Shown here in pieces: positions 19,303 through 54,774 of a stretch of DNA of 64,000 nucleotides; position 1 is the first letter of the stretch; each line of letters begins with the position of its first letter. A program made the position numbers and the translations under genes. The notes beneath the pieces were generated by a model that had not been told where the DNA came from, made no database searches, and saw only the letters and a list, made by a program, of their open reading frames with translations. This stretch comes from an uncultured Acidimicrobiia bacterium. Its GTDB lineage: Bacteria > Actinomycetota > Acidimicrobiia > Acidimicrobiales > AC-14. The stretch spans positions 16,401 through 80,400 of the forward strand of contig CAWGUU010000018.1 in the NCBI GenBank assembly GCA_963825765.1. Direction: 5' to 3'.

Positions 19303-20343
19303 TCACCCGGTTCGGCCAGACTCGCGGCGGCCGCGCCCGCCGATCTTGCGCCGGCCGGGCCCGCCGGAGTGGTGACGGGCCGGCGCCTCCGAGCCGCCGA
19401 CAGCTCGACCGGGCAACGTCACGACGGCCGAGGTGGGTCCCGGAAGCTCGTCGTCGGAGCGATGGCCCCGGCGTCGACGGGCGATGAGGAACGCGGCGAC
19501 GACCAGCAAACCGGCGCCGGCAGCCAGAACCGGTCCGTTGCCCAGGCCGTCGACCCAGCGGGTGACAGAGCCCGACCACCGCCCGACGGCGTCGACGGGA
19601 CCGCTCGGGACGCTGCGGCCCTGCGCGAGGCGGATGTCGTAGTACCCATAATATGCGACGTAGGCGCCGGCGATGGCGAGCAGGGCTCCAGCCGCCTTCT
19701 GCACATGGGGCAGCACCCGGCGAAGTCGTCTGACCAGAGCCCCCTGAGCCAGGGCGACGGCCACTGTGAGTGTGCCCAGCACCATGGCCATGCCGGCCGT
19801 GTAGGCCCCGAATGCGGCGAGCCCCGACGCGGCGTCGGCCTGCTCGAAGGTGGACGCGACCGCCACCAGAAACGCCGGTATCGTGCACGACAGCGACACC
19901 GTGGCATAGGAGGCGCCGAAGCCCGCCATGGCGGCGAGTCCCCGATCGTTGCCGGCAATGCCGAGGCGCCCGGACCGGGCCAGGCGGGGGAGGGCGATCT
20001 TGGGCTGCCAGCCGCGGGCCATGGCCACGCCCATCGGCACGAGGGCCAGCCCGATCGCGATCGAGAGCCAGGGCGTGAAGCGCTGCACCGTGATCGACAG
20101 CTGGGTGATGGCGAAACCGGCGATGCCGAACACGAAGGCGAAGCCAACCGAGACGGCCGCCGCCACCCGCAGCGCACTGGCCACCCTGACTGCCCCACCA
20201 CCGCCTGCGGCACCGCCGACGATGTCGTCGTCGTCGGTGCCGAGGAAATAGGACAGGTAGGCCGGGAGGAGCGCGAACCCGCACGGGTTGAAGGCGGCGA
20301 CGACGCCGGCTGCGAACGCGAAGCCGATCGGGGCGTCGAGCAC
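19303..20343 (-). CDS. ccdA: cytochrome c-type biogenesis protein CcdA (DsbD transmembrane domain)
   Basis: AAFNPCGFALLPAYLSYF motif with the conserved Cys; 6-TM profile. Confidence 0.85.
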   Translation of the reverse strand: MLDAPIGFAFAAGVVAAFNPCGFALLPAYLSYFLGTDDDDIVGGAAGGGGAVRVASALRVAAAVSVGFAFVFGIAGFAITQLSITVQRFTPWLSIAIGLALVPMGVAMARGWQPKIALPRLARSGRLGIAGNDRGLAAMAGFGASYATVSLSCTIPAFLVAVASTFEQADAASGLAAFGAYTAGMAMVLGTLTVAVALAQGALVRRLRRVLPHVQKAAGALLAIAGAYVAYYGYYDIRLAQGRSVPSGPVDAVGRWSGSVTRWVDGLGNGPVLAAGAGLLVVAAFLIARRRRGHRSDDELPGPTSAVVTLPGRAVGGSEAPARHHSGGPGRRKIGGRGRRESGRTG

Positions 20344-25586: not shown

Positions 25587-25692
25587 TCGTCACCGGATCG
25601 ACACATGTTGGGCCGACCACCTTCACCTGGGACCGTCATTCTGATGCCATGACGAACTCTGGCAGACGATCCACCAGGCTGACGAGCACGAC

Positions 25693-26043: not shown

Positions 26044-26119
26044 GGCATCTCAACTCATTCGGTCACGCAGCTATGGACCCGGAAACCTAGCCCGAGGGGT
26101 GAGCGCGTAGCATCGGTCA

Positions 26120-27373: not shown

Positions 27374-27377
27374 GGGC

Positions 27378-28766
27378 TCAGCTGGCCTGGGCCGCCGCCT
27401 CAGACTTCTCCTCATGTGGCCTGGAGGCCCGCAACAGCAAGATGGCGCCGAGGATCGCCGCCATCGTGGAGGCGCCCAGCACTCCCAGCTTGGCCGCGTC
27501 CTGAATGGCACCCGGCTCGTAGGCCAGCTCCGCGATGAACAGCGAGACGGTGAAGCCGATGCCACCGATGGCGGCGATTCCCACGACCATGGGCCAGGTT
27601 GATCCCTCGGGCAGACGACCGAGACCGGTGCGGACGGCCAACCACGTGAAAACGGTGATCCCGACGAGCTTGCCGACGACGAGGCCGAGCACCACGCCTG
27701 CGGTGACCCCCAGGGTGGCGGGGGCGTCGAAGGAGTCGGCCTTGATGACGACGCCGGCGTTGGCCAGGGCGAAGACGGGCACGACCACGAAGCTGGTCCA
27801 CGGGTGCAGCCGGTGCTCGAGGCGCTCGGCGGGAGAAACCGAGGTCTGCGCCAATCGGCTCATGGCGTCGAGCTCGGCCGGGTCGGGGTCGTCGCTCAGG
27901 TCCGAGGCCCACTCCCGGGTCAGAGCGGCCGGAGTCAGCGGCTGGGCCGGAGCGAGAAGGCCGAGCGCGACCCCGGCGATGGTGGCGTGCACCCCCGACG
28001 CCTGGGTAGCGAGCCAGACGCCGACGCCCAGCACGACATAGGGCGCCATCCAAACGACGCCTGCCCGCCGCAGGACCAGCATCATCACGACGATCCCAGC
28101 CGCGGTGGCAAGGAAAACGGGCTGCACGTCCGTGGCGTAGAAGACGGCGATCACCACGATTGCGCCGATGTCGTCGACGATGGCGAAGGTCAACAGGAAC
28201 AGCTTGAGCGACGCCGGCACCCTCGACCCCAGCAGGGCGACGACGCCGACGGCGAAGGCGATGTCGGTGGCCATCGGGACGCCCCATCCCCTCGCCCCCG
28301 CTCCCCCGATGGTCACCAGGAGGAACAGGAGCGCGGGCACGGCCATGCCACCGAGGGCGGCAATGGCGGGCATGGCCGCGACCCGGGGCTGGCGGAGGTC
28401 GCCGTGCACGAGCTCGCGCTTGATCTCGAGGCCCACCACGAAGAAGAACAGGGCCATGAGCCCGTCGTTGACCCAGTGCCGGAGGTCCTCGCTGAGCACG
28501 AACCGGCCCAGCCCGACCGACAGGTCGGTGTGCCACAGCGCCTCGTAGGAAGCGCTCCATGGCGAGTTGGCCCACAGCAGCGCCACCACCGCGGCGACGA
28601 GCAGCACGATCCCACCCGCCGCCTCGGTCTCGAGGAAACGTCGCACGGGCTTCGGCACTCGGCGCCCAGGCAGGGCGGCGGCGGCGCCTGTCAGATTCGC
28701 GCGGTCCTGTCCTTCACTGTCCCTGGTGCCCACGATTGCTGCTCCCTTGGTCGCGCGACGGCCCAT
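27378..28766 (-). CDS. nhaA: Na+/H+ antiporter NhaA
   Basis: WANSPW...FFFVVGLEIKRE...LTFAIVDDIGAIVVIAVFYA NhaA hallmarks; start at internal ATG (MGRRATKGAA...). Confidence 0.85.
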   Translation of the reverse strand: MGRRATKGAAIVGTRDSEGQDRANLTGAAAALPGRRVPKPVRRFLETEAAGGIVLLVAAVVALLWANSPWSASYEALWHTDLSVGLGRFVLSEDLRHWVNDGLMALFFFVVGLEIKRELVHGDLRQPRVAAMPAIAALGGMAVPALLFLLVTIGGAGARGWGVPMATDIAFAVGVVALLGSRVPASLKLFLLTFAIVDDIGAIVVIAVFYATDVQPVFLATAAGIVVMMLVLRRAGVVWMAPYVVLGVGVWLATQASGVHATIAGVALGLLAPAQPLTPAALTREWASDLSDDPDPAELDAMSRLAQTSVSPAERLEHRLHPWTSFVVVPVFALANAGVVIKADSFDAPATLGVTAGVVLGLVVGKLVGITVFTWLAVRTGLGRLPEGSTWPMVVGIAAIGGIGFTVSLFIAELAYEPGAIQDAAKLGVLGASTMAAILGAILLLRASRPHEEKSEAAAQAS

Positions 28767-28918
28767 CGCCGACCAGGCTTCCCGGCACACCCCCCACCGG
28801 AGTGGGCATGACCATCTTGACCCATCGGCGGGGCGGGACCCGACACGTCCAGTCGCACCCGCGGCGACCCTCGCCTGCCGAGGCCGCCCTCCGAAGACAG
28901 CGGTTGCTTGGACCCCCA

Positions 28919-29271
28919 TTAGGCGTCGCCACTCGCGGCCAGGTCGGGCTCATTGACTTTGGTCGCCTCGTAGGCGGCGTTGAGCGAGCTCACGACCGGG
29001 ACGACCCGGTCGAAGCCTGTGACCGACAGGAGGCGCCCGACGGCGCTACCGGAGCCGACACAGAGAGCCACCCTGCCCCTGTGATCCGAGCTTGGCGGAT
29101 ACCGAAGATGACAGCGCCCAGCCCCGCTGAGTCCATGAACGGCACTGCCCGGAAGTCGATGAGGACCGTTCCGAGCGTGGCGGCGATACGCAGACGCTCT
29201 CGGAGCTCACTCGCGTTCGACAAATCGACCTCTCCATGCACCTGGACTGTGACGCCACCGCGGCCGGCCAT
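28919..29271 (-). CDS. STAS-domain anti-sigma factor antagonist, frameshifted in a C4/G4 run near 29066..29069
   Basis: GAGGA RBS + ATG 29271; ...FMDSAGLGAVIFGIRQAR then alternative frame gives canonical STAS end ...GRVALCVGSGSAVGRLLSVTGFDRVV... Confidence 0.6.
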
Positions 29272-29676
29272 GGTGTGTTCCTCGAGTTTGCAGCGACATC
29301 GACGACTCCTTCTGGTCGGCCGCGGATGCGCCCGGTGGCGACATCGACATCGCCGGAGACGGACGCCCAGGCGCCGCCTCGTAGCGCCGTCGGCCAACTG
29401 GCGATGGGGCTTTCCGTTCGCGTGGCCCGTTGTCTTTGATTGGCGGCCTCGCAGGCATCCTGCGGTTCCGACCTGACGATCCTGCTTCGGCCACCTTGCG
29501 ATCCCGTGACATTCGATAGATCACGTCATTGACCAGGCTCTCCCGTGGGAAGCTCGGGCAGAGGCCGACGATTCGTTTCGCGACTCTCACGTACCCGACG
29601 AGCGGGAGTCCGTCCCGGAGAGCGTTGGTGCGACCCCCGGTATCCCAAGGGTCGTGCCGGGGCCAGGAATCGTGGC

Positions 29677-30633
29677 ATGTCCCGGGGGACAGGAAGGTCG
29701 GTCGAGCTGTTGGCTAGTCGTTGCCGTAGCAAGTGGGTTGGCATCGCCGTGGTGAGCCTGTTGGCCGCCTGTGGCGACGCAGCCATGACCGGGGCCCCGG
29801 TTGACATCCCTCTCAGTTCCACGACGACGACCCCGCCCACGACGACCCCGCCCACGACGACCCCGCCCACGACGACCCCGCCCACGACGACCCCGCCCAC
29901 GACGACCCCGCCCACGACGACCCCGCCCACGACGACCCCGCCCACGACGACCCCGCCCACGACGACCCCGCCCACGACGACCCCGCCCACGACGATGCCA
30001 CCACCCGTTCTCGGGTCAGGTGATGAGGGTCCGTCAGTGCTCGAGCTACAAGAGCGACTCGAGTCCCTCCGGTACTGGATCGGACCGGTCGATGGCGGCT
30101 TCGGTGCCCTCACCGAACAGGCGGTGTACGCCTTCCAGAAGGCGAACGGCATCGGGATCGACGGTCGCGTCGGCCCCGAGACCCGCGCCTCGCTGGCTGA
30201 TCCCGTTCCCCCGAAGTCTCGAAGCGAACAGAGCCACGTGGTTGAGATCGACAAGGAGCGCCAGCTGCTCCTCGCCGTCGCCGACGGGGAGGTTCAGTGG
30301 GTCTTCAACACGTCGACCGGCACGGAGCTGCCCTACGACCATCCGGACGGCTACACCGCGTTGGCCGACACTCCGCCCGGCACCCATACCGTCTTCTACG
30401 AGGTCGACGGCTGGCAGGAGGGTGAGCTGGGGCCCTTGTACCGCCCCAAGTACTTCCACAAGGACGGGATCGCGGTGCATGGCTATGGCGACGTCCCTCC
30501 GTACCCGGCCTCCCATGGTTGCGCTCGCGTCTCGTTCGAGGCGATCGACTACATCTGGGCGCAGGGCCTGATGCCAATGGGCGGGACGGTGCTGGTCTAT
30601 GGCGAATCACCGACGCCGGGACCGGTGGTCTGA
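29677..30633 (+). CDS. L,D-transpeptidase (YkuD) lipoprotein with PG-binding domain and (TTTPP)n linker
   Basis: lipobox SLLAACG; PG_binding_1-like LELQERLESLRYWIGPVDGGFG; catalytic HGYGDVPPYPASHGCARVS. Confidence 0.85.
   Translation: MSRGTGRSVELLASRCRSKWVGIAVVSLLAACGDAAMTGAPVDIPLSSTTTTPPTTTPPTTTPPTTTPPTTTPPTTTPPTTTPPTTTPPTTTPPTTTPPTTTPPTTMPPPVLGSGDEGPSVLELQERLESLRYWIGPVDGGFGALTEQAVYAFQKANGIGIDGRVGPETRASLADPVPPKSRSEQSHVVEIDKERQLLLAVADGEVQWVFNTSTGTELPYDHPDGYTALADTPPGTHTVFYEVDGWQEGELGPLYRPKYFHKDGIAVHGYGDVPPYPASHGCARVSFEAIDYIWAQGLMPMGGTVLVYGESPTPGPVV
29821..29995 (+). repeat. perfect 15-bp tandem repeat (acgacgaccccgccc) x about 11 encoding (TTTPP)n
   Basis: directly visible; no variant copies. 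Confidence 0.9.
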
Positions 30634-30811
30634 GCAGAGAGCGAGTCCCTCGCGCCTCGGATCTCAGCTTCGACCACTGGACGGCCACGAGTCGTGGCGC
30701 CCCTGGGATCCGAGCCTCCAGGGTTGTCATCGCGCCGCCGGCGTCGGGCGCCGACCGACCGCCTCGAGGCGGATGGCGGACTAGGTTTGGGTTGGTGGTC
30801 TACGGCCTCCG

Positions 30812-31339
30812 ATGACCAGCCTTTACCTCTTCGCCGCCGCCGCGGGAATCCCCTTGGTTCTCTGGTTCATGTTTTCGGGAGGCGAGGATGGCGGCGGCGC
30901 GGACAGCGGCCTCGCCGGTGTCATGTTCCGCCGCCTGCCACTGAGCACCTTGGCCATCGTGGCCGCCACGTTCGGAGTGTGCGGCCTTGTGCTCACCGCA
31001 GCAGGAACCGGCGGTGGACGTACCTTGATCTCGGCCGTGCTCGTCGGGCTGGTGGCAGGTCTTCTGAACGGCGCGCTTTTCTCCTATCTCCGCCGGTCGG
31101 AGTCGACCACCGAGGTGGTCGACGAACAGCTCGCGGGCAAGATTGGCCGGGTCGTGGTCCCGGTCGCGGGGGACCGGCGCGGCCGCATCGCGGTGAGCGT
31201 GGGAGGACAGCAGATCCACCTGTCGGCCCACGCCGTTCCTGAGGCGCCGGCCGACCTTGCTGTGGGCTCGGCCGTCCTGGTCGTGGAGGTTCACAACGGC
31301 ATTGCAATCGTCACCGCCCTGGACCCGGAGCTGAGCTGA
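30812..31339 (+). CDS. NfeD-family membrane protein (short form)
   Basis: N-terminal TM helices + C-terminal OB-like beta domain; precedes flotillin gene. Confidence 0.65.
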   Translation: MTSLYLFAAAAGIPLVLWFMFSGGEDGGGADSGLAGVMFRRLPLSTLAIVAATFGVCGLVLTAAGTGGGRTLISAVLVGLVAGLLNGALFSYLRRSESTTEVVDEQLAGKIGRVVVPVAGDRRGRIAVSVGGQQIHLSAHAVPEAPADLAVGSAVLVVEVHNGIAIVTALDPELS

Positions 31340-31370
31340 CGGCAGTCCACCTCAACGAAGGAGCCAACTC

Positions 31371-32630
31371 ATGACCGCCCTCATCCTCGGCGCGGTGCTC
31401 GCCGTCGTCGTCTTGGTGATCCTCACCACGATCCGCAGCCTGATCATCATCTGCCCCCCGAACCGGGTGGCGGTCATCTCCGGCCGCTCCCGCCAGCTGA
31501 GCGACGGTCGTACCGTCGGCTACCGGGCCATTCGCGGCGGACGGACGCTGCGGGTCCCGCTACTGGAACGGGTGTCGTGGATGGAGCTCAACACCATCCC
31601 CATCGAGGTATCGGTCATGAACGCCTACTCGAAGGGCGCCATCCCCTTGCACGTCCAGGGCATCGCCAACGTCAAGGTCTCGAGCGTCGAAGGGTTGCTC
31701 CAGAACTCCGTGGAGCGGTTCCTCGAGGTTCCCCAGAGCGAGATCGCGGCCATCGCCAAGGAGACGCTCGAAGCCAACCTGCGAGGAGTGCTCGCCACCC
31801 TCACTCCCGAGGAGGTCAACGAGGACCGGCTCAAGTTCGCCCAGACCCTCATCGAGGAGGCCGACGACGACATAAAGACTCTCGGTCTGGAGCTCGATGT
31901 CCTCAAGATCCAGAACGTCACCGACGAGGTGGGCTACCTCGACTCCGTGGGTCGTCGTCAGACGGCGGAAGTCCTGAAGGAAGCCCGGGTGGCCGAGGCC
32001 CAGTTCAAGGCCGAGGCCGAGGAGTCCGAGTCTCTGTCCCGCCAGCGAGCAGAGATCGCCACCGCCCAGGCCGACCTCAAGATCGTCGAGCAGCAGAACG
32101 CCCTCCGGGTCCGCCAGGCCGAGCTGGAGGCCATCGCCGGAGCGGCTGAGGCCGAGGCCAAGGTCGCCGGGGAGAAGGCCAGGGTGATCGCTGAGCAGGC
32201 CTTGGAGGCCGAGCGGGTGAAGCTGGAGACACGCCGGCTGGAGGCGTACGTGATCGCGCCGGCCCGGGCCGACCTCGAGGCCAAGGAACTGGCGGCCAAG
32301 GCCGACGCGGCCAAGATCATCGAGGACGGCAACGCCCAGATCGAGGTCTTCCGTCGACTGGTCGAGCAGTACAAGGCGGCGGGCGCCGACGCCCAGCGCG
32401 TCTTCGTCCTGCGGATGCTCCCCGACATCATCGACAGCATTGTCTCCACGGTGGCTGCAGTCGACATCGACAAGGTTTCCATCATTGACAGTGGGGGCCA
32501 GGGCACGGGGATCCCGGGCTTCATGGGCCAACTGCCGGCGGCGGTGATCGGGTTCGTCGAGCAGCTCGAGAACGCCACCGGCGTGGATCTGCTGAAGGCA
32601 TTGCGGCCGGAAGGCTCCCCTGCGCAGTAG
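31371..32630 (+). CDS. flotillin-like SPFH/band-7 protein
   Basis: N-terminal TM, SPFH domain, long Ala/Glu-rich coiled-coil repeats. Confidence 0.85.
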   Translation: MTALILGAVLAVVVLVILTTIRSLIIICPPNRVAVISGRSRQLSDGRTVGYRAIRGGRTLRVPLLERVSWMELNTIPIEVSVMNAYSKGAIPLHVQGIANVKVSSVEGLLQNSVERFLEVPQSEIAAIAKETLEANLRGVLATLTPEEVNEDRLKFAQTLIEEADDDIKTLGLELDVLKIQNVTDEVGYLDSVGRRQTAEVLKEARVAEAQFKAEAEESESLSRQRAEIATAQADLKIVEQQNALRVRQAELEAIAGAAEAEAKVAGEKARVIAEQALEAERVKLETRRLEAYVIAPARADLEAKELAAKADAAKIIEDGNAQIEVFRRLVEQYKAAGADAQRVFVLRMLPDIIDSIVSTVAAVDIDKVSIIDSGGQGTGIPGFMGQLPAAVIGFVEQLENATGVDLLKALRPEGSPAQ

Positions 32631-32640
32631 CAGCGGCCGT

Positions 32641-33720
32641 ATGAATACGTCGACCGGCGACACCGGCAACGGTCGCTGGATCGCGGCAGGCACGACGATC
32701 GTGGCCGCGACCATCGACCTCATCTACGGCGTGGAGGCGTCGCTGATCGTGCCCCTGGTCTTCGGACCATTCGTCGCGTCCGCACTGGCTTCGGTCCGAG
32801 ATACCGCGACCGTGGCCGTGGTGGCGACGTTGTTCGGCGTCCTCCTGGGCTGGACGGACCAGACCATCGGCACCTCCCCCCACGCCGTCCGCGTCGCTTC
32901 GGTGGCGATCGGGGGGACGCTCGCCGTCTGGCTCGCATCCACGCGCACCGCTCGCGAGCAGAAGCTGCAGGCCATGACCCGTGTGGCTCACGTGGCCCAA
33001 CAGGCGATCCTCCGCCCCCTCCCCGACGAGATCCGGTGCATCCGGCTCGCAGCCCGGTACGTGTCTGCATCGGCAGAGGCGCAGATAGGCGGCGACTTCT
33101 ACGAGGCGCTGGACACGCCGTGGGGCGTCCGGATCGTCGTCGGCGATGTCCGCGGGAAGGGACTCGACGCAGTGCGCCTGGCGGCGGTGCTCCTGGGCGA
33201 GTTCCGCAGTCGCGCCTTCTCGGAGCCGGACCTGACCGCGGTCGTCAAGGCCGTCGATGACGCGGGCGGTCGTGCGGTCGACCAGGCCGGCGAGGACTTT
33301 GCGACCGCGGTGTTCGTTCAACTCGACGGAGCACAGGCCACGATCGTCCGTTGCGGGCAGCCGCTCCCCTTTCTGGCGCAGAGTCAGGAGGTCCATCCGA
33401 TCGAGACCTACACGTCGCTGCCGCTCTGCCTCGGCACGGATGCCGTAGCCGACGAGGTCAGCCTGGGACCGGGGTCACGGATGCTGCTCTACAGCGACGG
33501 TGCGATCGAGGGGCGCGACGAGAGAGGCGACTACTTCGACCTTCAGTCGAGCTACCAGCGACATGTGGGCACCCCCGAACCCGGAACGGTGCTCGAGCTG
33601 ATCCTCGACGACCTGGACCGCCACTGCGACGGGGGGATCACCGACGACGTCGTTCTGGTGATCGCCGAGCAGCCTGGCTGGGCAAGGAGCTCGACTGGGT
33701 GTTCATGGCCGCCCTGCTGA
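32641..33720 (+). CDS. membrane-anchored PP2C-type Ser/Thr phosphatase (SpoIIE/RsbU-like)
   Basis: N-terminal TM segments; GGDFYEALD, VGDVRGKGLDA, LLYSDGAIEG, DDVVLVIAE metal-binding motifs; tail reads into secF remnant. Confidence 0.8.
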   Translation: MNTSTGDTGNGRWIAAGTTIVAATIDLIYGVEASLIVPLVFGPFVASALASVRDTATVAVVATLFGVLLGWTDQTIGTSPHAVRVASVAIGGTLAVWLASTRTAREQKLQAMTRVAHVAQQAILRPLPDEIRCIRLAARYVSASAEAQIGGDFYEALDTPWGVRIVVGDVRGKGLDAVRLAAVLLGEFRSRAFSEPDLTAVVKAVDDAGGRAVDQAGEDFATAVFVQLDGAQATIVRCGQPLPFLAQSQEVHPIETYTSLPLCLGTDAVADEVSLGPGSRMLLYSDGAIEGRDERGDYFDLQSSYQRHVGTPEPGTVLELILDDLDRHCDGGITDDVVLVIAEQPGWARSSTGCSWPPC

Positions 33721-34259
33721 CCGTCATCGGCTACTCGATCAACGACTCGGTGGTCGTGTTCGACCGTATCCGGGAACTGCGCCGGGACCGGCAGCGGGAG
33801 CCGCTGCGGGAGGTGGCCAACGACGCCTGCCTGCAGACGGTTCCCCGCACCATCAACACCGGCCTCGGAGCCCTGTTCATCCTGGTCGCCCTCTACCTGC
33901 TCGGGGGCGAGACGCTCCGAGACTTCGCCCTGGCGCTACTCATCGGCATCGTCGTGGGGACGTACTCCTCGGTGTTCACGGCCACGCCCCTCGCCCTGCG
34001 CTTCGAGGCCCTCGCCAACAGGTCGGATACCCCCTCGTCGCCACTTCGCCCGCAGCCGGCCAACGGGGTGCTCGCTCCCAAAGCGCCCACCAGGACCCCC
34101 ACGGCGACTGTGGCGCCCGGCCCATCCGCCACCTCTCAATCGAATGCGGCCGAGGCGAAGCAGTTGCCGGCGCCCCCGGCGCGACCGAAGCGACCGACGC
34201 ATGCGACCACCCAGCCTCGGCCCCGCAAGAAGCGCCGAAAGCAATCCAGGAGGAGATGA
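33681..34259 (+). pseudogene. secF: secF 3' fragment (C-terminal about 150 codons plus Pro/Lys-rich tail); N-terminus and secD absent
   Basis: WVFMAALLTVIGYSINDSVVVFDRIRE...TVPRTINTGLGALFILVALYLLGG...IGIVVGTYSSVFTATPLAL matches SecF TM4-6; no start codon/upstream part. Confidence 0.7.
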
Positions 34260-34328
34260 CGAACGATGGACCATGACATGACGACGAGGGGGCGTCTCTC
34301 TGGCGGGCTGAATCGCGACCAGCGCTGA

Positions 34329-34799
34329 TCAGCCTGGCGTGGCCTGATCGTCGACGCCGGCGTCCCGAGAGAGCGACCTTCTCCGACCGACTGCTGCGGC
34401 CGCGACGATCAGCACGAGCACGGCTGCTGCGATCCGACCGGGGCCGACCTGGTCCAGCCACGTCGAAACTTGGCCCGACCACCGGGTGACTATGGCCACC
34501 GGCCCGGCGTCGGCGTCGTCGTCGGTGGCGAGGCGGATCTCATACACCGCGTACCACGTGACGTAGGCGCCGGCGACGGCCAGGACCAGGCCACCGAGGC
34601 GGGCCGGCACCGGCCCAGCCCCTCGCAGGGCGGCGCCCACGGGGCGGCGGGCGAGGGCGATGGCCACGGCTAGCCCGGTCAGCACCGTGCCCATCCAACC
34701 GCGGCCGCGCTCAGCAGTCGGCGGGAGGAATCCGCGGGTGTCATGGCCTGCCAGCGTCGCACGCAACGGGGCCGCGATGCTGTCGCCCTGCGATGACAC
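34329..34799 (-). pseudogene. ccdA paralog 3' fragment (last TM helices only)
   Basis: LVLAVAGAYVTWYAVYEIRLA...VTRWSGQVSTWLDQVGPG aligns to C-terminus of the intact CcdA at 19303..20343; Cys motifs missing. Confidence 0.55.
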
Positions 34800-34829
34800 C
34801 CGGCCGACCGGCCGGAGCAGCTCTTACGC

Positions 34830-35672
34830 TCAGCGGATGCCAAGGCGGGCGTCGTCGCCCGGTGGGCGCCCCTGGACGAGGCGCAGCAATGCCTCGGCGG
34901 GAATCCGAAGGGGATCGGTCGTGCGGGTGACGAGCAGGTCGGTGTCGAGCACGCCGCCGGTCACGGTGGGGCCGAACGGGCTCCAGAAGGCGCCGTCGGC
35001 GGTGATCGTGAGCTCGGCCGGCAGGTCCCCCGTCTCGACTTCCACGCCGGCTCCCCGGACGCGGGCCCGCCCCCGGCGCACGACCGGGCGGACCACATGG
35101 TCCTCGTCGGCGACACCCAGGGAGCGGTGCAGCTCGCACAGCCGGGCGGCGGCATCGGGGTCGGCGGGGCCCTCGAGGGTCGTCGCCACCCTCACCCGCA
35201 GGCCCATGTCCACCAGGCGGGGAATGGCCTCCACCACCTTGTCGAAGTTGTCGGGGCCCCGGGCCGCGTCGTTGACGTCGGGCCGGTCGCTGTCCAAGGA
35301 CACCTGGATCCGGACGGGCAGGCCGCCCAGTGGGCGCAGGGCGGCCAGCCGGGCCGGGTTGAACAGGGTGCCGTTGGTGAGCACGACGGTGGGCAGCACC
35401 GTCGCCACACTGGCCAGCACGGCCGGCAGCTCGGGGCTCAGGAAGGGCTCGCCGCCGGTGATGCCGACCTCCGTGAAGCCCAGCGCCGCCGCCTGGCGCG
35501 TCAGGTCGACGATGCGGGAGCCGGCCAGGGCCCGCCGGGGGACCCCGGGGGCCGACTCGGTCAGGCAGTAGGTGCAGGCCAGGTTGCAGGAGTACGTCGA
35601 GTAGAACCACACCCGGCCGGGCAGGCGGCCGTCGGCCACCGCGGTGGCGACGTCGTGTCCACTTCCGCTCAC
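34830..35672 (-). CDS. radical SAM protein
   Basis: CNLACTYC (CxxxCxxC) plus GGEP; GTG start after GAGGG; no SPASM/extra Cys cluster. Confidence 0.75.
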   Translation of the reverse strand: MSGSGHDVATAVADGRLPGRVWFYSTYSCNLACTYCLTESAPGVPRRALAGSRIVDLTRQAAALGFTEVGITGGEPFLSPELPAVLASVATVLPTVVLTNGTLFNPARLAALRPLGGLPVRIQVSLDSDRPDVNDAARGPDNFDKVVEAIPRLVDMGLRVRVATTLEGPADPDAAARLCELHRSLGVADEDHVVRPVVRRGRARVRGAGVEVETGDLPAELTITADGAFWSPFGPTVTGGVLDTDLLVTRTTDPLRIPAEALLRLVQGRPPGDDARLGIR

Positions 35673-36247
35673 GACGTGAAGCCCTCGGCCGCCAGGCGGG
35701 CCAGCGTCTCGGACGACGACGGCAGCGACAGCGCCGTGCACAGGCGGTTGAGGAACACGGTGGCCCCGAGGGTGACGACGAGCTCGACGATCTCGTGGTC
35801 CCGGTACTGGGCGGACATGGCGGCGTGGACGTGGTCGGGCAGCGGGCCCCGCCCGGCGGCCAGCGCGTCGACCCAGGCGACGAGGGCGGCGGTGCCGTCG
35901 TCGACGCCGGCCGGGCGCTCACCCGGGGCCGTGCCCCGCAGGGCTGCCACCAGCTCGGGCCCCAGCCCCACGTCGAGGGCGGTGACGGTGCGGGCGTCGA
36001 CGCAGTAGCGGCAGCCGAGCACCGCCGAGGTGCGCAGCACCACCGTCTCCTTGACCGTCGGCGGCAACGAACCCGGCCCGAGGGCGGCGCCGACGAAGGG
36101 GATTGCCACCTCGGCCAGCTCCGGGACCGTGGCCAGCGACTTGACGATCACGCCCGGGTCGCCTCCGGCGAATAGGTGCCGGACGAGCAGGGGGGCCTGG
36201 TCGGCCTCGACCAACGCCACGCGCGGGGCCACGCCCCATACTCCCAC
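35669..36247 (-). CDS. carboxymuconolactone decarboxylase (CMD)/AhpD-like protein
   Basis: CMD-type CRYC motif region; stop overlaps radical SAM start (GTGA). Confidence 0.6.
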   Translation of the reverse strand: MGVWGVAPRVALVEADQAPLLVRHLFAGGDPGVIVKSLATVPELAEVAIPFVGAALGPGSLPPTVKETVVLRTSAVLGCRYCVDARTVTALDVGLGPELVAALRGTAPGERPAGVDDGTAALVAWVDALAAGRGPLPDHVHAAMSAQYRDHEIVELVVTLGATVFLNRLCTALSLPSSSETLARLAAEGFTS

Positions 36248-36348
36248 GCGAGGAGGCCGTGCCCCTCGACGGCGACGCCCTGGGGTGCTAGCACGGCGTC
36301 GTGGCCACCGACACCGCCCGGGCGGAACCGACGCTGCCGCCGGCGCGA

Positions 36349-36861
36349 CGGATGGCCCAGGGCCTGGCCGCCCTGCGCATCTTCACGGGAACCATCCTGT
36401 TCGCCAACGGGCTGGCCAAGCTGCTGGGGATCACGACGATCACCCTCGGCCCCTACCAGGCGAACCTCATCGACCGGGAGGCGACCCGCTTCATCCTGCG
36501 CTTCGAAGGGCTCGAGAACCCGGCCAACGGGGGAGCCGGTACCGAGGTACCCGGCCTCGAACCGGTGGTGCGATTCCTGCTCGACAACTTCGGCACCGTG
36601 GAGTGGCTCATCACTGCCGCCGAGCTCGCCGTCGGCGCCCTTCTGATCGTCGGCCTGGCCAGCCGGGGAGCGGCGATCCTCGCCCTTGGCCAGCACCTCT
36701 TCCTGGCCTTGCTGTACGCCTCATCGAACCGTTGGCTGTTCGAGCAGCCCCACGAGTACCTGCCGCTGCTCATCCTCGCCCTGGTCTCGTCGGGCCGCGT
36801 GTGGGGCCTCGACGGTCGCCTGGCGTGGGCTCGGGCCCGCGCCGGGAGGTTCCCGTTCTGA
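36349..36861 (+). CDS. DoxX-family membrane protein
   Basis: MAQGLAALRIFTGTILFANGLAKLLG DoxX-like; GTG at 36301 possible alternative start. Confidence 0.6.
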   Translation, partial: RMAQGLAALRIFTGTILFANGLAKLLGITTITLGPYQANLIDREATRFILRFEGLENPANGGAGTEVPGLEPVVRFLLDNFGTVEWLITAAELAVGALLIVGLASRGAAILALGQHLFLALLYASSNRWLFEQPHEYLPLLILALVSSGRVWGLDGRLAWARARAGRFPF

Positions 36862-37003
36862 GCGCGGCCGGCCGACGTAGGAGTCACCGGGTCGCCGGCA
36901 GCCGCGACGGGTGGGGCCGGGAGCGAGCCTCAGGGCCCCGACTCCCATGCCGCCAAAACGTACCCTTGACCGTCCTCCATGTAGGAAGGTGCAGCATTGG
37001 CCC

Positions 37004-37294
37004 GTGGAGATCACCGTGCTTTACGTGGAGGGCTGTCCGAACCTGACCCTGGCCCGGGCCAGGGTCGCGGAGGCGATCCGGGTCGCAGGTGTGACTGCGG
37101 TGGTGCGGGAGCGCCTCGTCAGCGACGAGGCAGAAGCCGCAGCCCTCGGCTTCGGAGGGTCCCCGACGATAGTGGTCGGCGGCCGTGACCTCTTTCCGTC
37201 GGCGCCGGCGGGGCTGTCGTGCCGGCGCTACGCCACTGACGCCGGTTACGAGGGAGCGCCCACCGTGGCCCAGCTCGTGAATGCCTTGGCATGA
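37004..37294 (+). CDS. small hypothetical protein (thioredoxin-like?)
   Basis: GTG after AGGAAGG; VEITVLYVEGCPNLTLARARV...; overlaps next gene start. Confidence 0.35.
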   Translation: MEITVLYVEGCPNLTLARARVAEAIRVAGVTAVVRERLVSDEAEAAALGFGGSPTIVVGGRDLFPSAPAGLSCRRYATDAGYEGAPTVAQLVNALA

Positions 37295-38028
37295 GCCCAC
37301 CCGATAGGGGCGGTACGGGTCACAGCGCGCAGGCCGCGCCCGACATGGGGGCGGAGCTGAACCGATTCCACGTGCTGGTGTTGGCCAAGGCCCCGGTCGC
37401 CGGAGCGGTCAAGACGCGCCTGTGCCCGCCGTGCTCGCCGGCCGAGGCGGCGGCGGTGGCTGCGGCCGCCCTGGCCGACACGCTCGACGCGGTGGCCGCG
37501 TGCGGGGCGGGCCGGCGCATCGTTGCCCTGTGGGGTGAGCCCGGCCCGTGGCTGCCCCCGGGCGTGGCGGTCGTGGCTCAGCGTGGTCGCACGCTGGGCG
37601 AGCGACTGGCCTGCGCCTGGGCCGACGCGGACGGGCCCGGTCTCCAGATCGGATCCGACACCCCCCAGGTCACGGCGGGCGACCTCGACGACGCGCTGGC
37701 GCTGCTCGGCGGGGCGCCCGCGGGCGGACGCGAGCGGGCGGTGCTGGGGCCGGCCACTGACGGGGGGTGGTGGGCCATCGGGCTGCCGCAGTGCGACCCC
37801 GGCGCCGTCTTCGCCGGCATACCGATGAGCTCGTCCCGCACCGGGGCCTGCCAGCACCGCCGCCTGCTCGCGCTGGGCTTCGACGTCCGCCTGGCCGCAT
37901 CCCGACGTGACATCGATACGGTGGACGATCTCGTCGCGGTCGCCCACGACGCACCTGGCACACGCACCGCTGCGGTGGCCGAGACCCTCGGCCTGACCGA
38001 TCGAGCGTTCGGCACCGGGCTCCGCTGA
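37291..38028 (+). CDS. DUF2064 (TIGR04282-like) nucleotidyltransferase/glycosyltransferase-like protein
   Basis: FHVLVLAKAPVAGAVKTRLCPP...AAAALADTLDAV matches DUF2064 N-terminus; ATGA overlap. Confidence 0.6.
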   Translation: MSPPDRGGTGHSAQAAPDMGAELNRFHVLVLAKAPVAGAVKTRLCPPCSPAEAAAVAAAALADTLDAVAACGAGRRIVALWGEPGPWLPPGVAVVAQRGRTLGERLACAWADADGPGLQIGSDTPQVTAGDLDDALALLGGAPAGGRERAVLGPATDGGWWAIGLPQCDPGAVFAGIPMSSSRTGACQHRRLLALGFDVRLAASRRDIDTVDDLVAVAHDAPGTRTAAVAETLGLTDRAFGTGLR

Positions 38029-38230
38029 TTGTCGCACCGAGCAGGCGCCGCCCCGACGGGCGTCGAGCAGCGAGCAGAACAGTGGCTCGGAGTCGAAGCG
38101 GGGCACGCACAGCCAGACCACCGCCCCGTCACGGCCCACGAGGGCCGCGGTCGTACCATCGCCGATGAGACCGAGGTCTTCCAGCGCGGGGTAGCCGTGG
38201 TAGTTCAGCGGGGCAGTCGTCACGCCAACC

Positions 38231-38854
38231 CTACGACAAGGGGGCCCGGCCGGAGTTCGGCCGCGGGGACGATATCGTCGAGGGCCTCGACGTTGGCGGG
38301 ATAGGCGCCGGCGGAGGAAAGCGTGCTTTCCCCAACTCGGTCCGGGTGAGGTGGACCTCGTCGCCGTGACAGCCTACGACGCCTTCATCCGGGAGGATCT
38401 CGACCCGTCCGCCGAACTCGATGCGGGCAGGGCCGGTGGCGTGGTCACGGGACCGCCGCAACATGGCACGGATCCTGGCCGCCAGTTCCTTCTCTCGAAC
38501 GGCTTGGCCAGGTAGTCGTTCGCTCCCGCTTCGAGCCCGGCCACGACGTCGTAGGCATCGGTGCGGGCGGTGACCATGATGATGGGAAATGCTGCGGCTC
38601 CGAATGGCCCGGCAGGTGTCGAAGGCGTTGCCGTCCGGCAGCATCATGTCGAGCAGCCCGCAGTCGGCCGGTCGGCGCTCGAACCGGGTGATCGTCTCGC
38701 GGCCACCTGCGGCCTGGTGGACGTCGTAACCCTCGTCCTCGAGGAGGACCGCCGACTGGCTCCGGATGCTCTCGTCGCCCTCGACAAGCAGAATGAGTCC
38801 GGGCATCCCACCATTGTCCCGCATCGAGCTGGGTTGTCCGAAGACGGGCGTCAT
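38231..38854 (-). pseudogene. OmpR-family response regulator remnant with multiple frameshifts
   Basis: receiver pieces (LILLVEGDESIRS..., DYLAKPFE in another frame) and wHTH piece ([12 protein letters not shown]...LTRTELG) spread over at least 2 frames. Confidence 0.5.
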
Positions 38855-38981
38855 GGCACGGCTACCGCCAGGACCCCGGCGTCTCGGTCGACCGTCTCCG
38901 CCCTCAACTCCTTGGCGGTCGCCTCGTCGAGTCCCCTAACCTCGCCGCTTCTTCGGTACTCTACCTGGGTATAGTAAGTAT

Positions 38982-39263
38982 ATGCCTGGATATGCCATGG
39001 ACAAGGACGACCTGCTGAAGCGGCTGCGCCGGGTCGAGGGCCAGGTCCGGGGCCTTCAGCAGATGGTGGAGGAGGGCCGTTATTGCATCGACGTCCTCAC
39101 CCAGATCTCGGCCGCGACCAAGGCCCTACAGAGTGTGGCCATGGGCCTGCTCGACGACCACCTCCGCCACTGCGTGGCCGATGCGGTGGCCACTGGAGGT
39201 CCGGAGGCGGACAAGAAGCTGACCGAGGCCACCGCCGCCGTCGCCCGCCTGATCAGAAGCTAG
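38982..39263 (+). CDS. csoR: CsoR/RcnR-family metal-sensing repressor (copper-sensing CsoR-like)
   Basis: [31 protein letters not shown]...H..C with C-H-C ligands. Confidence 0.85.
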
Positions 39264-39275
39264 GAGGAGGACCGC

Positions 39276-41417
39276 ATGCATCCCACCCACGACACAGCAC
39301 CGACGGTCCACGACGACGATGGGATCGACACCGGAGTCGGACACCCAGACGGCCACGACCAGCCGGCGGGTGAGCACGGCGACACCGGGAGCCATGGAGG
39401 TCATGGTGACCACGTCGCCATGTTCCGACGGCGGTTCTGGTGGAGCCTGCTCCTGACGATCCCCCTCGTGGCTACCAGCCACATGGTCATGGACTGGCTC
39501 GGCTACGAGATCGACTTCCCCGCCATGGCCTGGGTCGGGCCCGTCCTCGGCACCGGCATCTTATTCTGGGGTGGTTGGCCCTTCCTCTCCGGTGGATGGT
39601 CGGAGGTCCGCGGTCGTCGTCCCGGGATGATGCTCCTCATCTCCATGGCGATCACGGTGGCCTACACCGCGTCGCTGGCCACGAGCCTGGGATGGTTCGA
39701 CCTCGACTTCTGGTGGGAGCTGGCGGCGCTGATCACGATCATGCTCCTGGGTCACTGGCTGGAGATGCGGGCCCTGGGCCAGGCCCAGTCGGCGCTGGCC
39801 GCCCTGGCCGCGCTGCTGCCCGACGAGGCAGAGCGGGTCCGCCCCGGCGGCGAGATCGAGACGGTGTCGACCTCGGTCCTCGGGCGCGCCGATGTGGTGC
39901 TCGTGCGGGCCGGCGGGCGCGTGCCGGCCGACGGCGTCGTCGTGGACGGCGAGGCCGAGCTGGACGAGTCCATGGTCACTGGCGAATCCCGCCCGGTGGC
40001 CAAGGGCGCCGGCGACCCGGTCATCGCCGGCACGGTGGTGACCGATTCGGCCCTCCGCGTCCGGGTGGAGGCGGTCGGCGACGACACCGCCCTGGCCGGC
40101 ATCCAGCGCCTGGTGGCCGAGGCCCAGGCATCTCGGAGCCGGGCCCAGGCCCTTGCCGACCGCTTCGCCGCCCTGCTGTTCTATGTCGCGGCCGGCTCCG
40201 CGGTGGTCACCTTCGTGGGCTGGTGGGCGGCGGGCTCGCTCGACGACGCGGTGGTGCGCACCGTCACCGTGCTGGTCATCGCCTGCCCCCACGCCCTCGG
40301 CCTGGCCATCCCCCTGGTGGTCTCGTTGTCGACGGCCGTGGCCGCCCAGGCCGGCATCCTGATCAAGGACCGGCTGGCCCTGGAGCGCATGCGCACCGTC
40401 GATGCGGTGCTGTTCGACAAGACCGGGACCCTCACCAAAGGTGAGCACGCCCTCACTGCCGTGGCCGGGGTCGGCTTCGACGAGGATCAGGTCCTGCGCA
40501 TGGCGGGTTCGGTCGAGTCCGACAGCGAGCATCCGTTGGCCCGGGCCATCGTGGCCGCGGCCCACCAGCGCGGCTCGGTGTCGCCCGCCAGCCAGTTCCG
40601 CTCCATCGTCGGCCGGGGCGTGGAGGCCACGGTTGACGGTCAGCGCTACGCCGTCGGGGGTCCCGCCCTGCTCCGGGAGCGTCAGCTCACCGAACCGGTT
40701 TCGCTGAAGGAGGCTGCCGATCAGTGGCGGTCGCGGGGCGCGGCGGTCCTCTACCTCGTGCGCGGGGACGAGATAGTCGGTGCGCTCGCCCTTGAGGACG
40801 AGATCCGGCCGGAGGCGGCCGAGGCCGTGGCCGAGCTGCGCCGGATCGGCCGGCGGGTGGTGATGATCTCCGGCGACGCCCGCCAGGTGGCAGAGTCCGT
40901 CGGTGCCGCCCTCGGGTTCGACGAGGTCATGGCCGAGGTCCTGCCCGAGGACAAGGACGCCAAGGTGGCCGAGCTGCAGGCCCGGGGCCTGCGGGTGGCG
41001 ATGGTGGGCGACGGGGTCAACGACGCCCCCGCCCTGGCCCGGGCCGATGTGGGCATCGCCATCGGCGCCGGGACCGACGTGGCCATGGAGTCCGCCGGCG
41101 TCGTGCTCGCCTCCAACGATCCTCGGGCGGTGGTGTCGGTCATCCGACTGTCCCAGGCCAGCTACCGCAAGATGATCCAGAACCTGGCCTGGGCCGCCGG
41201 CTACAACATCCTCGCCATCCCCCTGGCGGCGGGTGCGTTCTCGTGGGCCGGCATCACCCTGTCGCCCGCCGTCGGGGCCATCCTCATGAGCGGCTCGACC
41301 ATCGTCGTCGCTCTCAATGCCCAGCTCCTGCGGCGCATCCAGCTCCGACCCACGACCTCTGCCGCCGATTACTCGCAGGAGCCACATGAAGCTCTCCCGT
41401 CCGCTCGTAGCGCGTGA
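39276..41417 (+). CDS. copA: heavy-metal (copper) P1B-type ATPase, CPH type with His-rich N-terminus
   Basis: TAGGAGGAGG RBS; CPHALGLA, DKTGTLT, GDGVNDAPAL; N-terminus HDDDGIDTGVGHPDGHDQPAGEHGDTGSHGGHGDH instead of CxxC. Confidence 0.9.
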   Translation: MHPTHDTAPTVHDDDGIDTGVGHPDGHDQPAGEHGDTGSHGGHGDHVAMFRRRFWWSLLLTIPLVATSHMVMDWLGYEIDFPAMAWVGPVLGTGILFWGGWPFLSGGWSEVRGRRPGMMLLISMAITVAYTASLATSLGWFDLDFWWELAALITIMLLGHWLEMRALGQAQSALAALAALLPDEAERVRPGGEIETVSTSVLGRADVVLVRAGGRVPADGVVVDGEAELDESMVTGESRPVAKGAGDPVIAGTVVTDSALRVRVEAVGDDTALAGIQRLVAEAQASRSRAQALADRFAALLFYVAAGSAVVTFVGWWAAGSLDDAVVRTVTVLVIACPHALGLAIPLVVSLSTAVAAQAGILIKDRLALERMRTVDAVLFDKTGTLTKGEHALTAVAGVGFDEDQVLRMAGSVESDSEHPLARAIVAAAHQRGSVSPASQFRSIVGRGVEATVDGQRYAVGGPALLRERQLTEPVSLKEAADQWRSRGAAVLYLVRGDEIVGALALEDEIRPEAAEAVAELRRIGRRVVMISGDARQVAESVGAALGFDEVMAEVLPEDKDAKVAELQARGLRVAMVGDGVNDAPALARADVGIAIGAGTDVAMESAGVVLASNDPRAVVSVIRLSQASYRKMIQNLAWAAGYNILAIPLAAGAFSWAGITLSPAVGAILMSGSTIVVALNAQLLRRIQLRPTTSAADYSQEPHEALPSARSA

Positions 41418-45344: not shown

Positions 45345-45475
45345 TTATCCCGACCTCGGGGGGCATGCCCGCTCACCAGCGGGGCCCCCCGCCGACTGGG
45401 CCGACGCGGCGCGGGCCCGAGCCACGTCGGGATAATCGCGAGGTCGGGATAAGTCCAGTTACTCCGAAATCGGGG

Positions 45476-52813: not shown

Positions 52814-52860
52814 ACGCTAGACCTTCCCGTAGCGGAGGGGACGGGGAGTCGGCGATCACC

Positions 52861-54753: not shown

Positions 54754-54774
54754 CGACACGGGGGTAGACGCAGG

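What the first reader, a model, noticed from the sequence alone, without database searches (positions are those of the whole stretch)
33600..34800. Rearrangement scar: 3' fragment of secF fused after the PP2C gene, adjacent to a 3' fragment of a second ccdA
The sequence from about 33681 encodes the last three TM helices and Pro/Lys-rich tail of SecF with no start codon, no upstream secF half and no secD. The phosphatase ORF simply reads through into it in another frame. Right beside it on the other strand is a C-terminal piece of a CcdA paralogue (the intact ccdA is at 19303..20343). Fragments of essential or core genes inside an accessory block indicate ancient integration into the 3' ends of such genes, or partial duplications.
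Basis: partly seen in the sequence, partly recalled or inferred. Interest (0 to 1): 0.55.

Follow-up and report, generated by a model that had tools for sequence, protein, structure and literature searches.

The report
Dead secF and ccdA gene remnants
Two leftover gene pieces (the tail end of secF and of a second ccdA) mark where a 5.2-kb block of DNA recently replaced 2.8 kb in one strain lineage of an uncultured Acidimicrobiia-like bacterium; this is ordinary genome wear-and-tear rather than a new system.

Summary
Window 33672-34259 encodes only the last third of SecF (Pfam PF02355 positions 76-186 of 189, E 4e-41) plus its native basic tail and stop codon. No other SecD/SecF sequence occurs in the 64 kb. 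The PP2C gene (32641-33720) has a complete catalytic domain. After 33674 it runs out-of-frame through secF DNA for about 15 codons to a TGA.

The ORF at 34329-34694(-) is the C-terminal 121 aa of a CcdA paralogue.

The PP2C|secF joint is not an assembly chimera. It is 100% identical over 241 nt in two further contigs of another assembly, which differ from the window by 35 substitutions in 4.3 kb.

Close relatives (98% nt) are syntenic on both sides. They carry the native PP2C tail plus TetR and two ABC-transporter genes (2.8 kb) where the window has 33675-38882 (5.2 kb). That block is a mosaic that also holds a trehalase-like 5' fragment and a broken response regulator.

The ccdA piece comes from a separate 1,084-nt internal deletion, confirmed in an independent short-read contig.

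Best reading: recent illegitimate recombination at a 3-nt GCC microhomology, leaving non-functional remnants. There is no support for an ancient integration into secF. Low interest.

The parts
32641..33720 (+). PP2C/SpoIIE-family phosphatase gene with a chimeric 3' end. Native sequence runs to 33674. The last ~15 codons and the TGA stop (33718-33720) are secF DNA read in the wrong frame.
   Evidence: Pfam SpoIIE profile 4-190/192. Orthologue alignment: 7 of 9 members of the 90% cluster are 377 aa with the tail 'FVSDVSS...', and only the window has the 359-aa form. L082 (98.9%), L083 (90%) and L088 (98.1%) align to the window up to 33674 and then agree with each other, not with the window.
33672..33674 (.). 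Recombination joint: 3-nt GCC microhomology shared by the PP2C side (...GAGCAGCC|GTTCGT in relatives) and the secF side (...TTCGCC|TGGCTG in L002).
   Evidence: DNA alignment A3. The joint is 100% identical over 241 nt in L086 and L087.
33672..34259 (+). 3' fragment of secF: the last three predicted TM helices plus a Pro/Lys/Arg-rich tail and the native stop. A 186-aa ORF can be called from GTG 33699.
   Evidence: PF02355 positions 76-186/189 and TIGR00966 positions 169-277/279. Alignment A1. GC3 0.95 in the core and 3 hydrophobic segments. P0001 is the 186-aa gene call on the 91.6-kb source contig.
33684..33707 (+). Fortuitous translation signals inside the fragment: AAGGAG (33684-33689, the conserved G-K-E codons), GTG 33699 and ATG 33705. 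They overlap the PP2C stop.
   Evidence: Read directly from the sequence.
33675..38882 (.). 5,208-nt mosaic block, present in the window lineage where relatives have 2,819 nt (PP2C tail, TetR, ABC ATPase, ABC permease).
   Evidence: L088 aligns to window 23816-33674 and 38883-42635 but not in between. L088 and L090 share the same gene order. GC is 74-80% in 34.4-38.0 kb against 65-70% in the flanks.
34329..34694 (-). 3' fragment (121 aa) of a CcdA/DsbD_TM paralogue. It lacks both conserved Cys motifs. The mechanical ORF extends to 34799 through unrelated sequence.
   Evidence: Intact 293-aa (L089) and 253-aa (L084) versions exist.
34696..34697 (.). Deletion point: 1,084 nt (thioredoxin-like ORFs plus the 5' two-thirds of ccdA) present in L089 and L084 are missing here.
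   Evidence: blastn of L084 and L089 against the window. Junction sequences. The same deletion is in the Logan short-read contig L085 (99.1%, covering 34121-35052).
34830..36247 (-). Intact cargo of the block: a carboxymuconolactone-decarboxylase-family gene and an Rv1681-family radical SAM gene. DoxX (36301-36861), a thioredoxin-like ORF (36911-37294) and DUF2064 (37291-38028) follow on the + strand.
   Evidence: Pfam and NCBIfam.
38030..38223 (-). 5' fragment (64 aa) of a trehalase-like/GH15 gene, cut off by the DUF2064 gene.
   Evidence: PF19291 TREH_N profile 13-64/211, E 2.6e-8.
38231..38854 (-). Broken response-regulator gene, with the receiver domain split over two frames.
   Evidence: PF00072 positions 1-68 in one frame and 75-104 in another.

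Best explanation
The secF and ccdA pieces are non-functional remnants left by two separate recent DNA rearrangements in a strain-variable stretch of an Acidimicrobiia-like chromosome.

Event 1. A 5.2-kb mosaic segment (33675-38882) replaced 2.8 kb of resident DNA (the PP2C tail, TetR and an ABC exporter). The left end of the incoming DNA lay in the middle of a secF gene. It was joined to the very end of the PP2C gene by illegitimate recombination at a 3-nt GCC microhomology. The right end lies about 100 nt upstream of csoR.

The pattern is that of homology-facilitated illegitimate recombination: one illegitimate joint, recipient DNA lost, and a flank that is homologous in relatives. The pattern is shown; the mechanism is inferred.

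The PP2C enzyme keeps its whole catalytic domain and merely gains a new 15-residue tail and stop codon from out-of-frame secF. The secF piece lacks TM1-3, the periplasmic domain and secD, so it cannot act as SecF.

Event 2. Inside the imported block, a 1,084-nt deletion removed a thioredoxin-like gene and the 5' two-thirds of ccdA, including both catalytic cysteines.
For: Shown:
- No other secDF sequence is in the window.
- Three relatives share a different, mutually consistent PP2C 3' end.
- 7 of 9 near-identical PP2C proteins have the 377-aa native form.
- Two long contigs (L088 284 kb, L090 212 kb) have PP2C-TetR-ABC-ABC-CsoR-ATPase and align to the window on both sides of 33675-38882 at 98%.
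- The same joint is 100% identical in L086 and L087, which differ from the window by 35 substitutions in 4.3 kb. L087 is followed after the lipase gene by the same SBP_bac_5 gene as L090, not by the window's integrases.
- The ccdA deletion is supported by L084 and L089 (intact) and L085 (same deletion, different project).
- The block contains two further gene wrecks and is richer in GC than its flanks.
- SNP density against L088 is highest in the first 600 nt right of 38883 (22 of 69 SNPs), as expected if a short homologous anchor was imported. This point is weak.

Background: integration of foreign DNA by HFIR at 3-10 bp joints is described in PMC6382021. From my own knowledge, de Vries & Wackernagel 2002 is the primary report.
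Against: - The donor was not found. The nearest full secF is only 79% aa / 85% nt identical (L002), and two JGI metagenome pattern scans gave nothing. The direction and single-step nature of event 1 are therefore inferred.
- Homology of the rSAM/ccdA module in L084 and L089 ends at 34303 and 34277. The ~600-nt secF piece could therefore have been joined to that module in an earlier, separate event.
- The fragment is still an open frame with GC3 0.95, a Shine-Dalgarno-like AAGGAG and a GTG start, so expression cannot be excluded.
- I could not see reads, nor the rest of the source genome.
Confidence: 0.78

Rival explanations
1. Assembly chimera: two unrelated molecules were joined at 33674|33675 by a chimeric long read or a graph error.
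For: The contigs look like long-read assemblies with homopolymer indels. One example is G5 versus G6 at 24272, which splits the histidine kinase gene. The joint has only 3 nt of shared sequence. The 359-aa PP2C form is a singleton in its protein cluster.
Against: The joint and 241 nt around it are identical in two more contigs (L086 14.3 kb, L087 44.8 kb) of assembly ERZ25039530. Both are colinear with the window for 10-12 kb across the joint. They differ from the window at 35 substitution sites. Both flanks of the 5.2-kb block are syntenic with one and the same relative, which a random mis-join would not produce.
Confidence: 0.04
2. Footprint of an integrative element that targets the 3' part of secF. 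The element carries a replacement 3' end, and the displaced or carried secF 3' copy remains as a fragment.
For: 3' fragments of target genes are typical of such elements (general knowledge). Tyrosine recombinase genes lie at 43139-44769 and 52861-53892. A second, independent secF 3' fragment without secD occurs in another MAG (L091).
Against: - There is no secD or secF 5' part within 33 kb upstream or 30 kb downstream, and no repeat of the fragment.
- The flanks are syntenic with relatives whose locus is PP2C-TetR-ABC, not secDF.
- The nearest integrase is 9 kb away, outside the replaced block.
- The L091 fragment breaks 59 codons earlier, which does not fit a site-specific core.
- A 588-nt att duplication would be unusually long.
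Confidence: 0.06
3. The fragment is a working small gene. A 186-aa, 3-TM protein is translated from GTG 33699, coupled to the PP2C stop, and modulates Sec translocation or the membrane-stress module NfeD-SPFH-PP2C.
For: - The frame is open, with AAGGAG 9 nt upstream of GTG 33699 and a 22-nt overlap with the PP2C ORF.
- GC3 is 0.95.
- It has the same orientation as the operon.
- Another truncated secF (191 aa, L091) sits after a PspC/LiaF envelope-stress module.
Against: - The AAGGAG is simply the conserved G-K-E codons of secF.
- The protein is a singleton cluster.
- The arrangement is confined to one strain lineage, while 7 near-identical relatives lack it.
- L086 and L087 carry a +1 C at 33816 that breaks the frame after 47 codons. 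This could be a homopolymer read error.
- There are 2 non-synonymous and 2 synonymous differences among strains.
- The neighbouring DNA is full of other wrecks.
Confidence: 0.07

Closest known systems
Homology-facilitated illegitimate recombination (HFIR) / microhomology-mediated acquisition of foreign DNA
   Same: There is one joint at a very short GC-rich microhomology (3 nt). Recipient DNA (2.8 kb) is lost and replaced by a longer unrelated segment (5.2 kb). The other flank is homologous in relatives. A truncated gene sits at the illegitimate end (PMC6382021).
   Different: The donor, the uptake route and RecA dependence are unknown. The right-hand 'anchor' is inferred only from synteny and a weak SNP gradient. 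HFIR was defined experimentally in naturally transformable Acinetobacter, Pseudomonas stutzeri and Streptococcus pneumoniae, not in Acidimicrobiia.
SecF (TIGR00966 / PF02355), subunit of SecDF
   Same: The last ~110 core residues are 85% identical to Acidimicrobiia SecF, with the invariant GYSxNDSVVVFDRIR motif and the typical basic tail.
   Different: It lacks the N-terminal two-thirds (TM1-3 and the periplasmic domain) and any SecD partner. It scores below the TIGR00966 cut-off.
CcdA / DsbD transmembrane thiol-disulfide transporters paired with ResA-like thioredoxins
   Same: The fragment aligns to the last TM helices and C-terminal extension of paralogues. Those paralogues carry the FNPCGF and SLSCT cysteine motifs and sit next to thioredoxin-like genes.
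   Different: Both cysteine motifs and the thioredoxin partner are deleted here.
Displaced 3' gene ends at integrative-element attachment sites
   Same: A 3' fragment of a housekeeping gene lies in an accessory region.
   Different: There is no cognate intact gene, no att repeat and no adjacent integrase. The breakpoint differs from that of the other secF fragment seen.

Membership tests
SecF (TIGR00966, PF02355 + PF07549) | Full-length match reaching the curated score | tested here: not met
   TIGR00966 gives 151.9 bits against a cut-off of 160, and only model positions 169-277/279 are matched. PF02355 covers positions 76-186/189. There is no Sec_GG hit.
SecF (TIGR00966, PF02355 + PF07549) | Adjacent or fused secD partner | tested here: not met
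   tblastn of the 827-aa SecDF against the whole window finds only residues 631-786 at 33672-34130.
SecF (TIGR00966, PF02355 + PF07549) | Conserved C-terminal TM core motif (GYSxNDSVVVFDRIR) and native stop | tested here: met
   Alignment A1 shows invariant columns throughout the core, and the tail resembles those of P0003, P0005, P0007 and L002.
CcdA / DsbD_TM (PF02683) | Two conserved cysteines in TM1 and TM4 | tested here: not met
   The fragment begins after both motifs. The paralogues at 19303-20343 and in L089 have FNPCGF and SLSCT. The fragment has no Pfam hit. The full paralogues score 24.0 and 25.6 bits, just under the 27.1 cut-off.
PP2C / SpoIIE phosphatase (PF07228) | Complete catalytic domain | tested here: met
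   Profile positions 4-190/192, 104.5 bits against a cut-off of 25. Conserved columns are retained up to E343/Q344.
Integrative element with target-gene 3' duplication | Intact target gene plus a direct repeat of its 3' end bounding an element with an adjacent integrase | tested here: not met
   There is no second secF sequence and no significant repeat of 33672-34259. The flanks are syntenic with relatives lacking secDF.
HFIR-type acquisition | Illegitimate joint at 3-10 bp microhomology | tested here: met
   GCC is shared by the PP2C and secF parental sequences at 33672-33674.
HFIR-type acquisition | Replacement of recipient DNA, with a homologous anchor on the other side | tested here: inconclusive
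   The replacement is shown (2,819 nt against 5,208 nt). The anchor is only suggested by raised SNP density at 38883-39480. No donor sequence is available.
HFIR-type acquisition | RecA-dependent uptake of foreign DNA | not testable with these tools
   This requires genetics.

The most novel reading that the evidence does not exclude
Truncated SecF C-terminal modules are recurrently captured and expressed downstream of membrane-stress operons in Acidimicrobiia. Here the operon is NfeD-SPFH-PP2C; in L091 it is a PspC/LiaF-type module. On this reading they act as small membrane proteins that titrate or modulate SecD/SecYEG. The window's copy has a ready-made Shine-Dalgarno sequence and a GTG start overlapping the PP2C stop.
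Probability: 0.04. Interest if true: 0.6.

Novelty: already known. Interest (0 to 1): 0.15.

Why it matters
It matters mainly for annotation hygiene. The 186-aa 'SecF' and 121-aa hypothetical protein called on this contig should be flagged as pseudogene fragments, and the PP2C gene as having a chimeric 3' end.

It also gives a clean, base-resolved natural example of segment replacement by illegitimate recombination between closely related environmental strains. The before and after states are both present in public assemblies. The stretch between PP2C and csoR-copA appears to be a recombination hot spot in this lineage.

Tried and rejected
1. Looked for a hidden or frameshifted upstream secF or secD with tblastn in all frames. 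None was found.
2. The genome-contig scan with the fragment returned only one useful relative (L002, 68% aa). It has a fused secDF and no synteny with the window. The source genome is not in that collection, so the resident secDF could not be located.
3. Exact look-ups of the window's own 186-aa and 359-aa proteins gave no record, so the source sample is unknown.
4. P0069 (165 aa, same start position) looked like a parallel truncation. It is a frameshift-riddled contig with secD upstream.
5. L087's '339-aa SecD_SecF_C' gene looked like an intact secF next to the ccdA fragment. Alignment showed it is the same joint, with the gene called through the PP2C region in the secF frame.
6. Two JGI metagenome pattern scans for the fragment, the joint or a donor with the same tail gave 0 hits. 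The IMG/VR scan gave 0 relatives. The plasmid search gave only distant secD/rSAM matches.
7. No terminal repeats bound the 5.2-kb block. A 21-nt, 81% direct repeat spanning the joint (33663-33683) and the ccdA stop (34323-34343) was judged likely to be chance.
8. No att-like repeat was found between ~42.6 kb and the tRNA-Thr/Met region.
9. The frameshift in the secF fragment of L086/L087 was considered as proof of decay. It was downgraded because these assemblies show homopolymer indels generally.
Full report
**What is there.** The window is 70% GC, and its closest relatives are uncultured Acidimicrobiia/Acidimicrobiales MAG contigs.

- On the + strand, an NfeD-like gene (30812-31339), an SPFH/Band-7 gene (31371-32630) and a PP2C/SpoIIE-family phosphatase gene (32641-33720) form a tight cluster.
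- The PP2C domain is complete (Pfam profile 4-190 of 192, ending at residue 343).
- In another frame, the ORF 33351-34259 matches SecD_SecF_C only from residue 108 on. The match covers profile positions 76-186/189 (E 3.7e-41) and TIGR00966 positions 169-277/279 (151.9 bits, below the 160-bit cut-off).
- Alignment with full-length relatives puts the first homologous codon at 33672 ('AWLGKELD...'). The piece then runs colinearly, without frameshift, through the last three hydrophobic segments and a Pro/Lys/Arg-rich tail to the native stop at 34259.
- A tblastn of a complete 827-aa SecDF against all six frames finds nothing else in the window.
- On the minus strand, 34329-34694 encodes 121 aa that are 43% identical to residues 185-299 of the CcdA-like protein at 19303-20343. 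It lacks both cysteine motifs that the full paralogues carry.

One point needs adjusting: in-frame GTG 33699 and ATG 33705 exist behind an AAGGAG (33684-33689). Gene callers emit a 186-aa 'SecF' from these signals (P0001).

**The PP2C|secF joint.** Three relatives were compared: L082 (98.9% nt), L083 (90.3%) and L088 (98.1%). All three align with the window up to exactly 33674 and then continue with a sequence they share with each other but not with the window ('...GAGCAGCC|GTTCGT...').

At protein level, 7 of the 9 members of the 90%-identity PP2C cluster are 377 aa with this native tail. The window's 359-aa form is unique, and a 268-aa member is a frameshifted call on L086.

On the other side, the secDF of L002 aligns at 85% nt from 33672 onward ('...TTCGCC|TGGCTGGGCAAGGAG'). 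The two parental sequences therefore share only GCC at the joint. After the joint, PP2C reads about 15 codons of secF out of frame to a TGA at 33718-33720.

**Not a chimera.** Two more contigs from ENA assembly ERZ25039530 are colinear with the window across the joint. L086 (14.3 kb) matches 36775-24352 at 97.4%. L087 (44.8 kb) matches 42635-32477 at 98.7%. The 241 nt around the joint are 100% identical in both.

L086 and L087 are nearly identical to each other but differ from the window at 35 substitution sites in 4.3 kb. In L087 the lipase gene is followed by an SBP_bac_5 gene, as in L090, rather than by the window's integrases. The joint is thus inherited by at least two distinguishable genomes.

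L087's '339-aa SecD_SecF_C' gene is only the same fragment called through the PP2C region, not an intact secF.

**What happened.** L088 (284-kb contig) and L090 (212-kb contig) show the following gene order:

- NhaA, STAS, NfeD, Band7, PP2C(377 aa), TetR, ABC ATPase, ABC permease, CsoR, P-type ATPase, cupredoxin, GDSL lipase.

L088 aligns to window 23816-33674 and 38883-42635 (98% next to the block). Its 2,819 nt in between are replaced in the window by 5,208 nt, at 33675-38882. The right boundary lies about 100 nt upstream of csoR.

The inserted block is a mosaic. It contains, in order:

- the secF 3' fragment;
- the ccdA 3' fragment;
- an Rv1681-family radical SAM gene, a CMD-family gene, DoxX, a thioredoxin-like ORF and DUF2064, all apparently intact;
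- a 64-aa 5' fragment of a trehalase-like gene;
- a response regulator split over two frames.

Its central part is 74-80% GC, against 65-70% in the flanks. No terminal repeats bound it.

This anatomy matches homology-facilitated illegitimate recombination or a comparable microhomology-mediated replacement: one joint at a 3-nt GC-rich microhomology, loss of recipient DNA, gain of a longer unrelated segment, and a flank homologous in relatives. HFIR background comes from PMC6382021 and, from my own knowledge, de Vries & Wackernagel 2002. A raised SNP density against L088 in the first 600 nt right of 38883 (22 of 69 SNPs) fits an imported anchor, but this evidence is weak.

**The ccdA remnant is a second event.** L089 (95.6% nt to 38024-34783) and L084 (a 1.6-Mb contig) carry thioredoxin-like ORFs followed by an intact 293/253-aa CcdA. 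The window lacks 1,084 nt between 34697 and 34696.

The same deletion is present in a 933-nt Logan short-read contig from an unrelated run (L085, 99.1%, covering 34121-35052). That contig also confirms that the secF tail and the ccdA fragment are adjacent.

Downstream of ccdA, homology to the window ends at 34303 in L084 (followed by a PemK toxin-antitoxin pair) and at 34277 in L089 (followed by IS21 IstB). This module therefore sits in different contexts in different strains. The ~600-nt secF piece could have been joined to it earlier than the PP2C joint.

**Origin of the secF piece.** Apart from the fragment itself, no SecF at least 90% identical exists in the 5.8-billion-protein collection. 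The best core matches are 85% aa, and the best match including the tail is L002 at 79% aa. Two JGI pattern scans, an IMG/VR scan and a plasmid search found no donor.

I could not reach the rest of the source genome. Whether an intact secDF exists elsewhere was therefore not tested, and a foreign origin is inferred, not shown.

**Function.**

- PP2C: probably unaffected. Only a tail that is not conserved among orthologues was exchanged.
- secF fragment: it cannot be a SecF, because it has no TM1-3, no periplasmic domain and no SecD. It could be translated, given the AAGGAG, the GTG and its overlap with the PP2C stop. However, the AAGGAG is just the conserved G-K-E codons and the protein is a singleton. 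L086 and L087 also carry a +1 C at 33816 that breaks the frame. That insertion is of the homopolymer type seen elsewhere in these assemblies, so it is ambiguous.
- ccdA fragment: it lacks both cysteines and its thioredoxin partner.

I conclude that both are pseudogene remnants (confidence about 0.78). The rivals are a chimera (0.04), an att-type footprint of an element targeting secF (0.06) and a functional mini-protein (0.07).

**A loose end.** A different MAG (GCA_023265025.1, L091) also has a secF 3' fragment. It is 191 aa, covers PF02355 positions 22-187, and has no secD within 8 kb. It lies behind a PspC/LiaF-type module. Its breakpoint is 59 codons earlier than the window's, which argues for independent illegitimate events rather than a site-specific mechanism.

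**Verdict.** The 'scar' interpretation is right, but the cause and age are different from what was proposed. This is an ordinary, already-known kind of genome decay at recombination joints. Interest is low.

Noticed in passing
L091:8001-8576 (GCA_023265025.1, JAHFUP010000031.1): A second, independent secF 3' fragment in another MAG. It is 191 aa, covers PF02355 positions 22-187/189, and has no secD or secF 5' part within 8 kb. It lies downstream of a PspC/LiaF-like envelope-stress module. Its breakpoint is 59 codons earlier than in the window.
   Followed up: partly
window 23606-25005 (indel at 24272): The sensor histidine kinase is split into two overlapping ORFs (HAMP | HisKA+HATPase) by a G5-versus-G6 homopolymer difference relative to L088. 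This is either a long-read indel error or a real pseudogene. Similar homopolymer indels occur at 41485-41764 in the cupredoxin region.
   Followed up: partly
window 30684-30740: Relatives L088, L090 and L082 carry about 1.08 kb here, including a 120-aa ORF on the minus strand, that the window lacks. This is another strain-level indel just upstream of the NfeD-SPFH-PP2C cluster.
   Followed up: partly
window 38030-38223 (-) and 38231-38854 (-): A 64-aa 5' fragment of a trehalase-like (TREH_N/GH15) gene is cut off by DUF2064. Next to it is a response regulator whose receiver domain is split over two frames. These are further wrecks at the right end of the 5.2-kb block.
   Followed up: yes
window 42635-54800: Synteny with L088, L090 and L087 ends at about 42635-42832. 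What follows are tyrosine recombinase genes (43139-44359, 44356-44769, 52861-53892), a GAF/PAS histidine kinase with a LuxR-type regulator, and tRNA-Thr/tRNA-Met at 54544-54753. This is probably an integrated element. No att repeat was found.
   Followed up: partly
window 34830-38028; L089:44-4868: A GC-rich (74-80%) accessory redox module: CMD-family gene, Rv1681-family radical SAM (NF049973, 214 bits, below its 380-bit cut-off), DoxX, thioredoxin-like ORF and DUF2064. In relatives a ResA-like thioredoxin and CcdA are also present. It occurs in at least three different genomic contexts (window, L084, L089). In L089 the CMD and rSAM genes are called as one 471-aa protein.
   Followed up: no
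window 33663-33683 and 34323-34343: A 21-nt imperfect direct repeat (81%). One copy spans the PP2C|secF joint and the other lies at the ccdA stop codon, so the pair roughly brackets the secF fragment. It is probably chance in 70% GC DNA.
   Followed up: no
L082:2845-5327 (ERZ25039530 contig_23175): In the same assembly that holds the rearranged allele, a contig with the ancestral 377-aa PP2C has a resolvase and a Transposase_29 gene a few kb upstream of the NfeD-SPFH-PP2C cluster. Mobile elements are therefore active around this locus.
   Followed up: no
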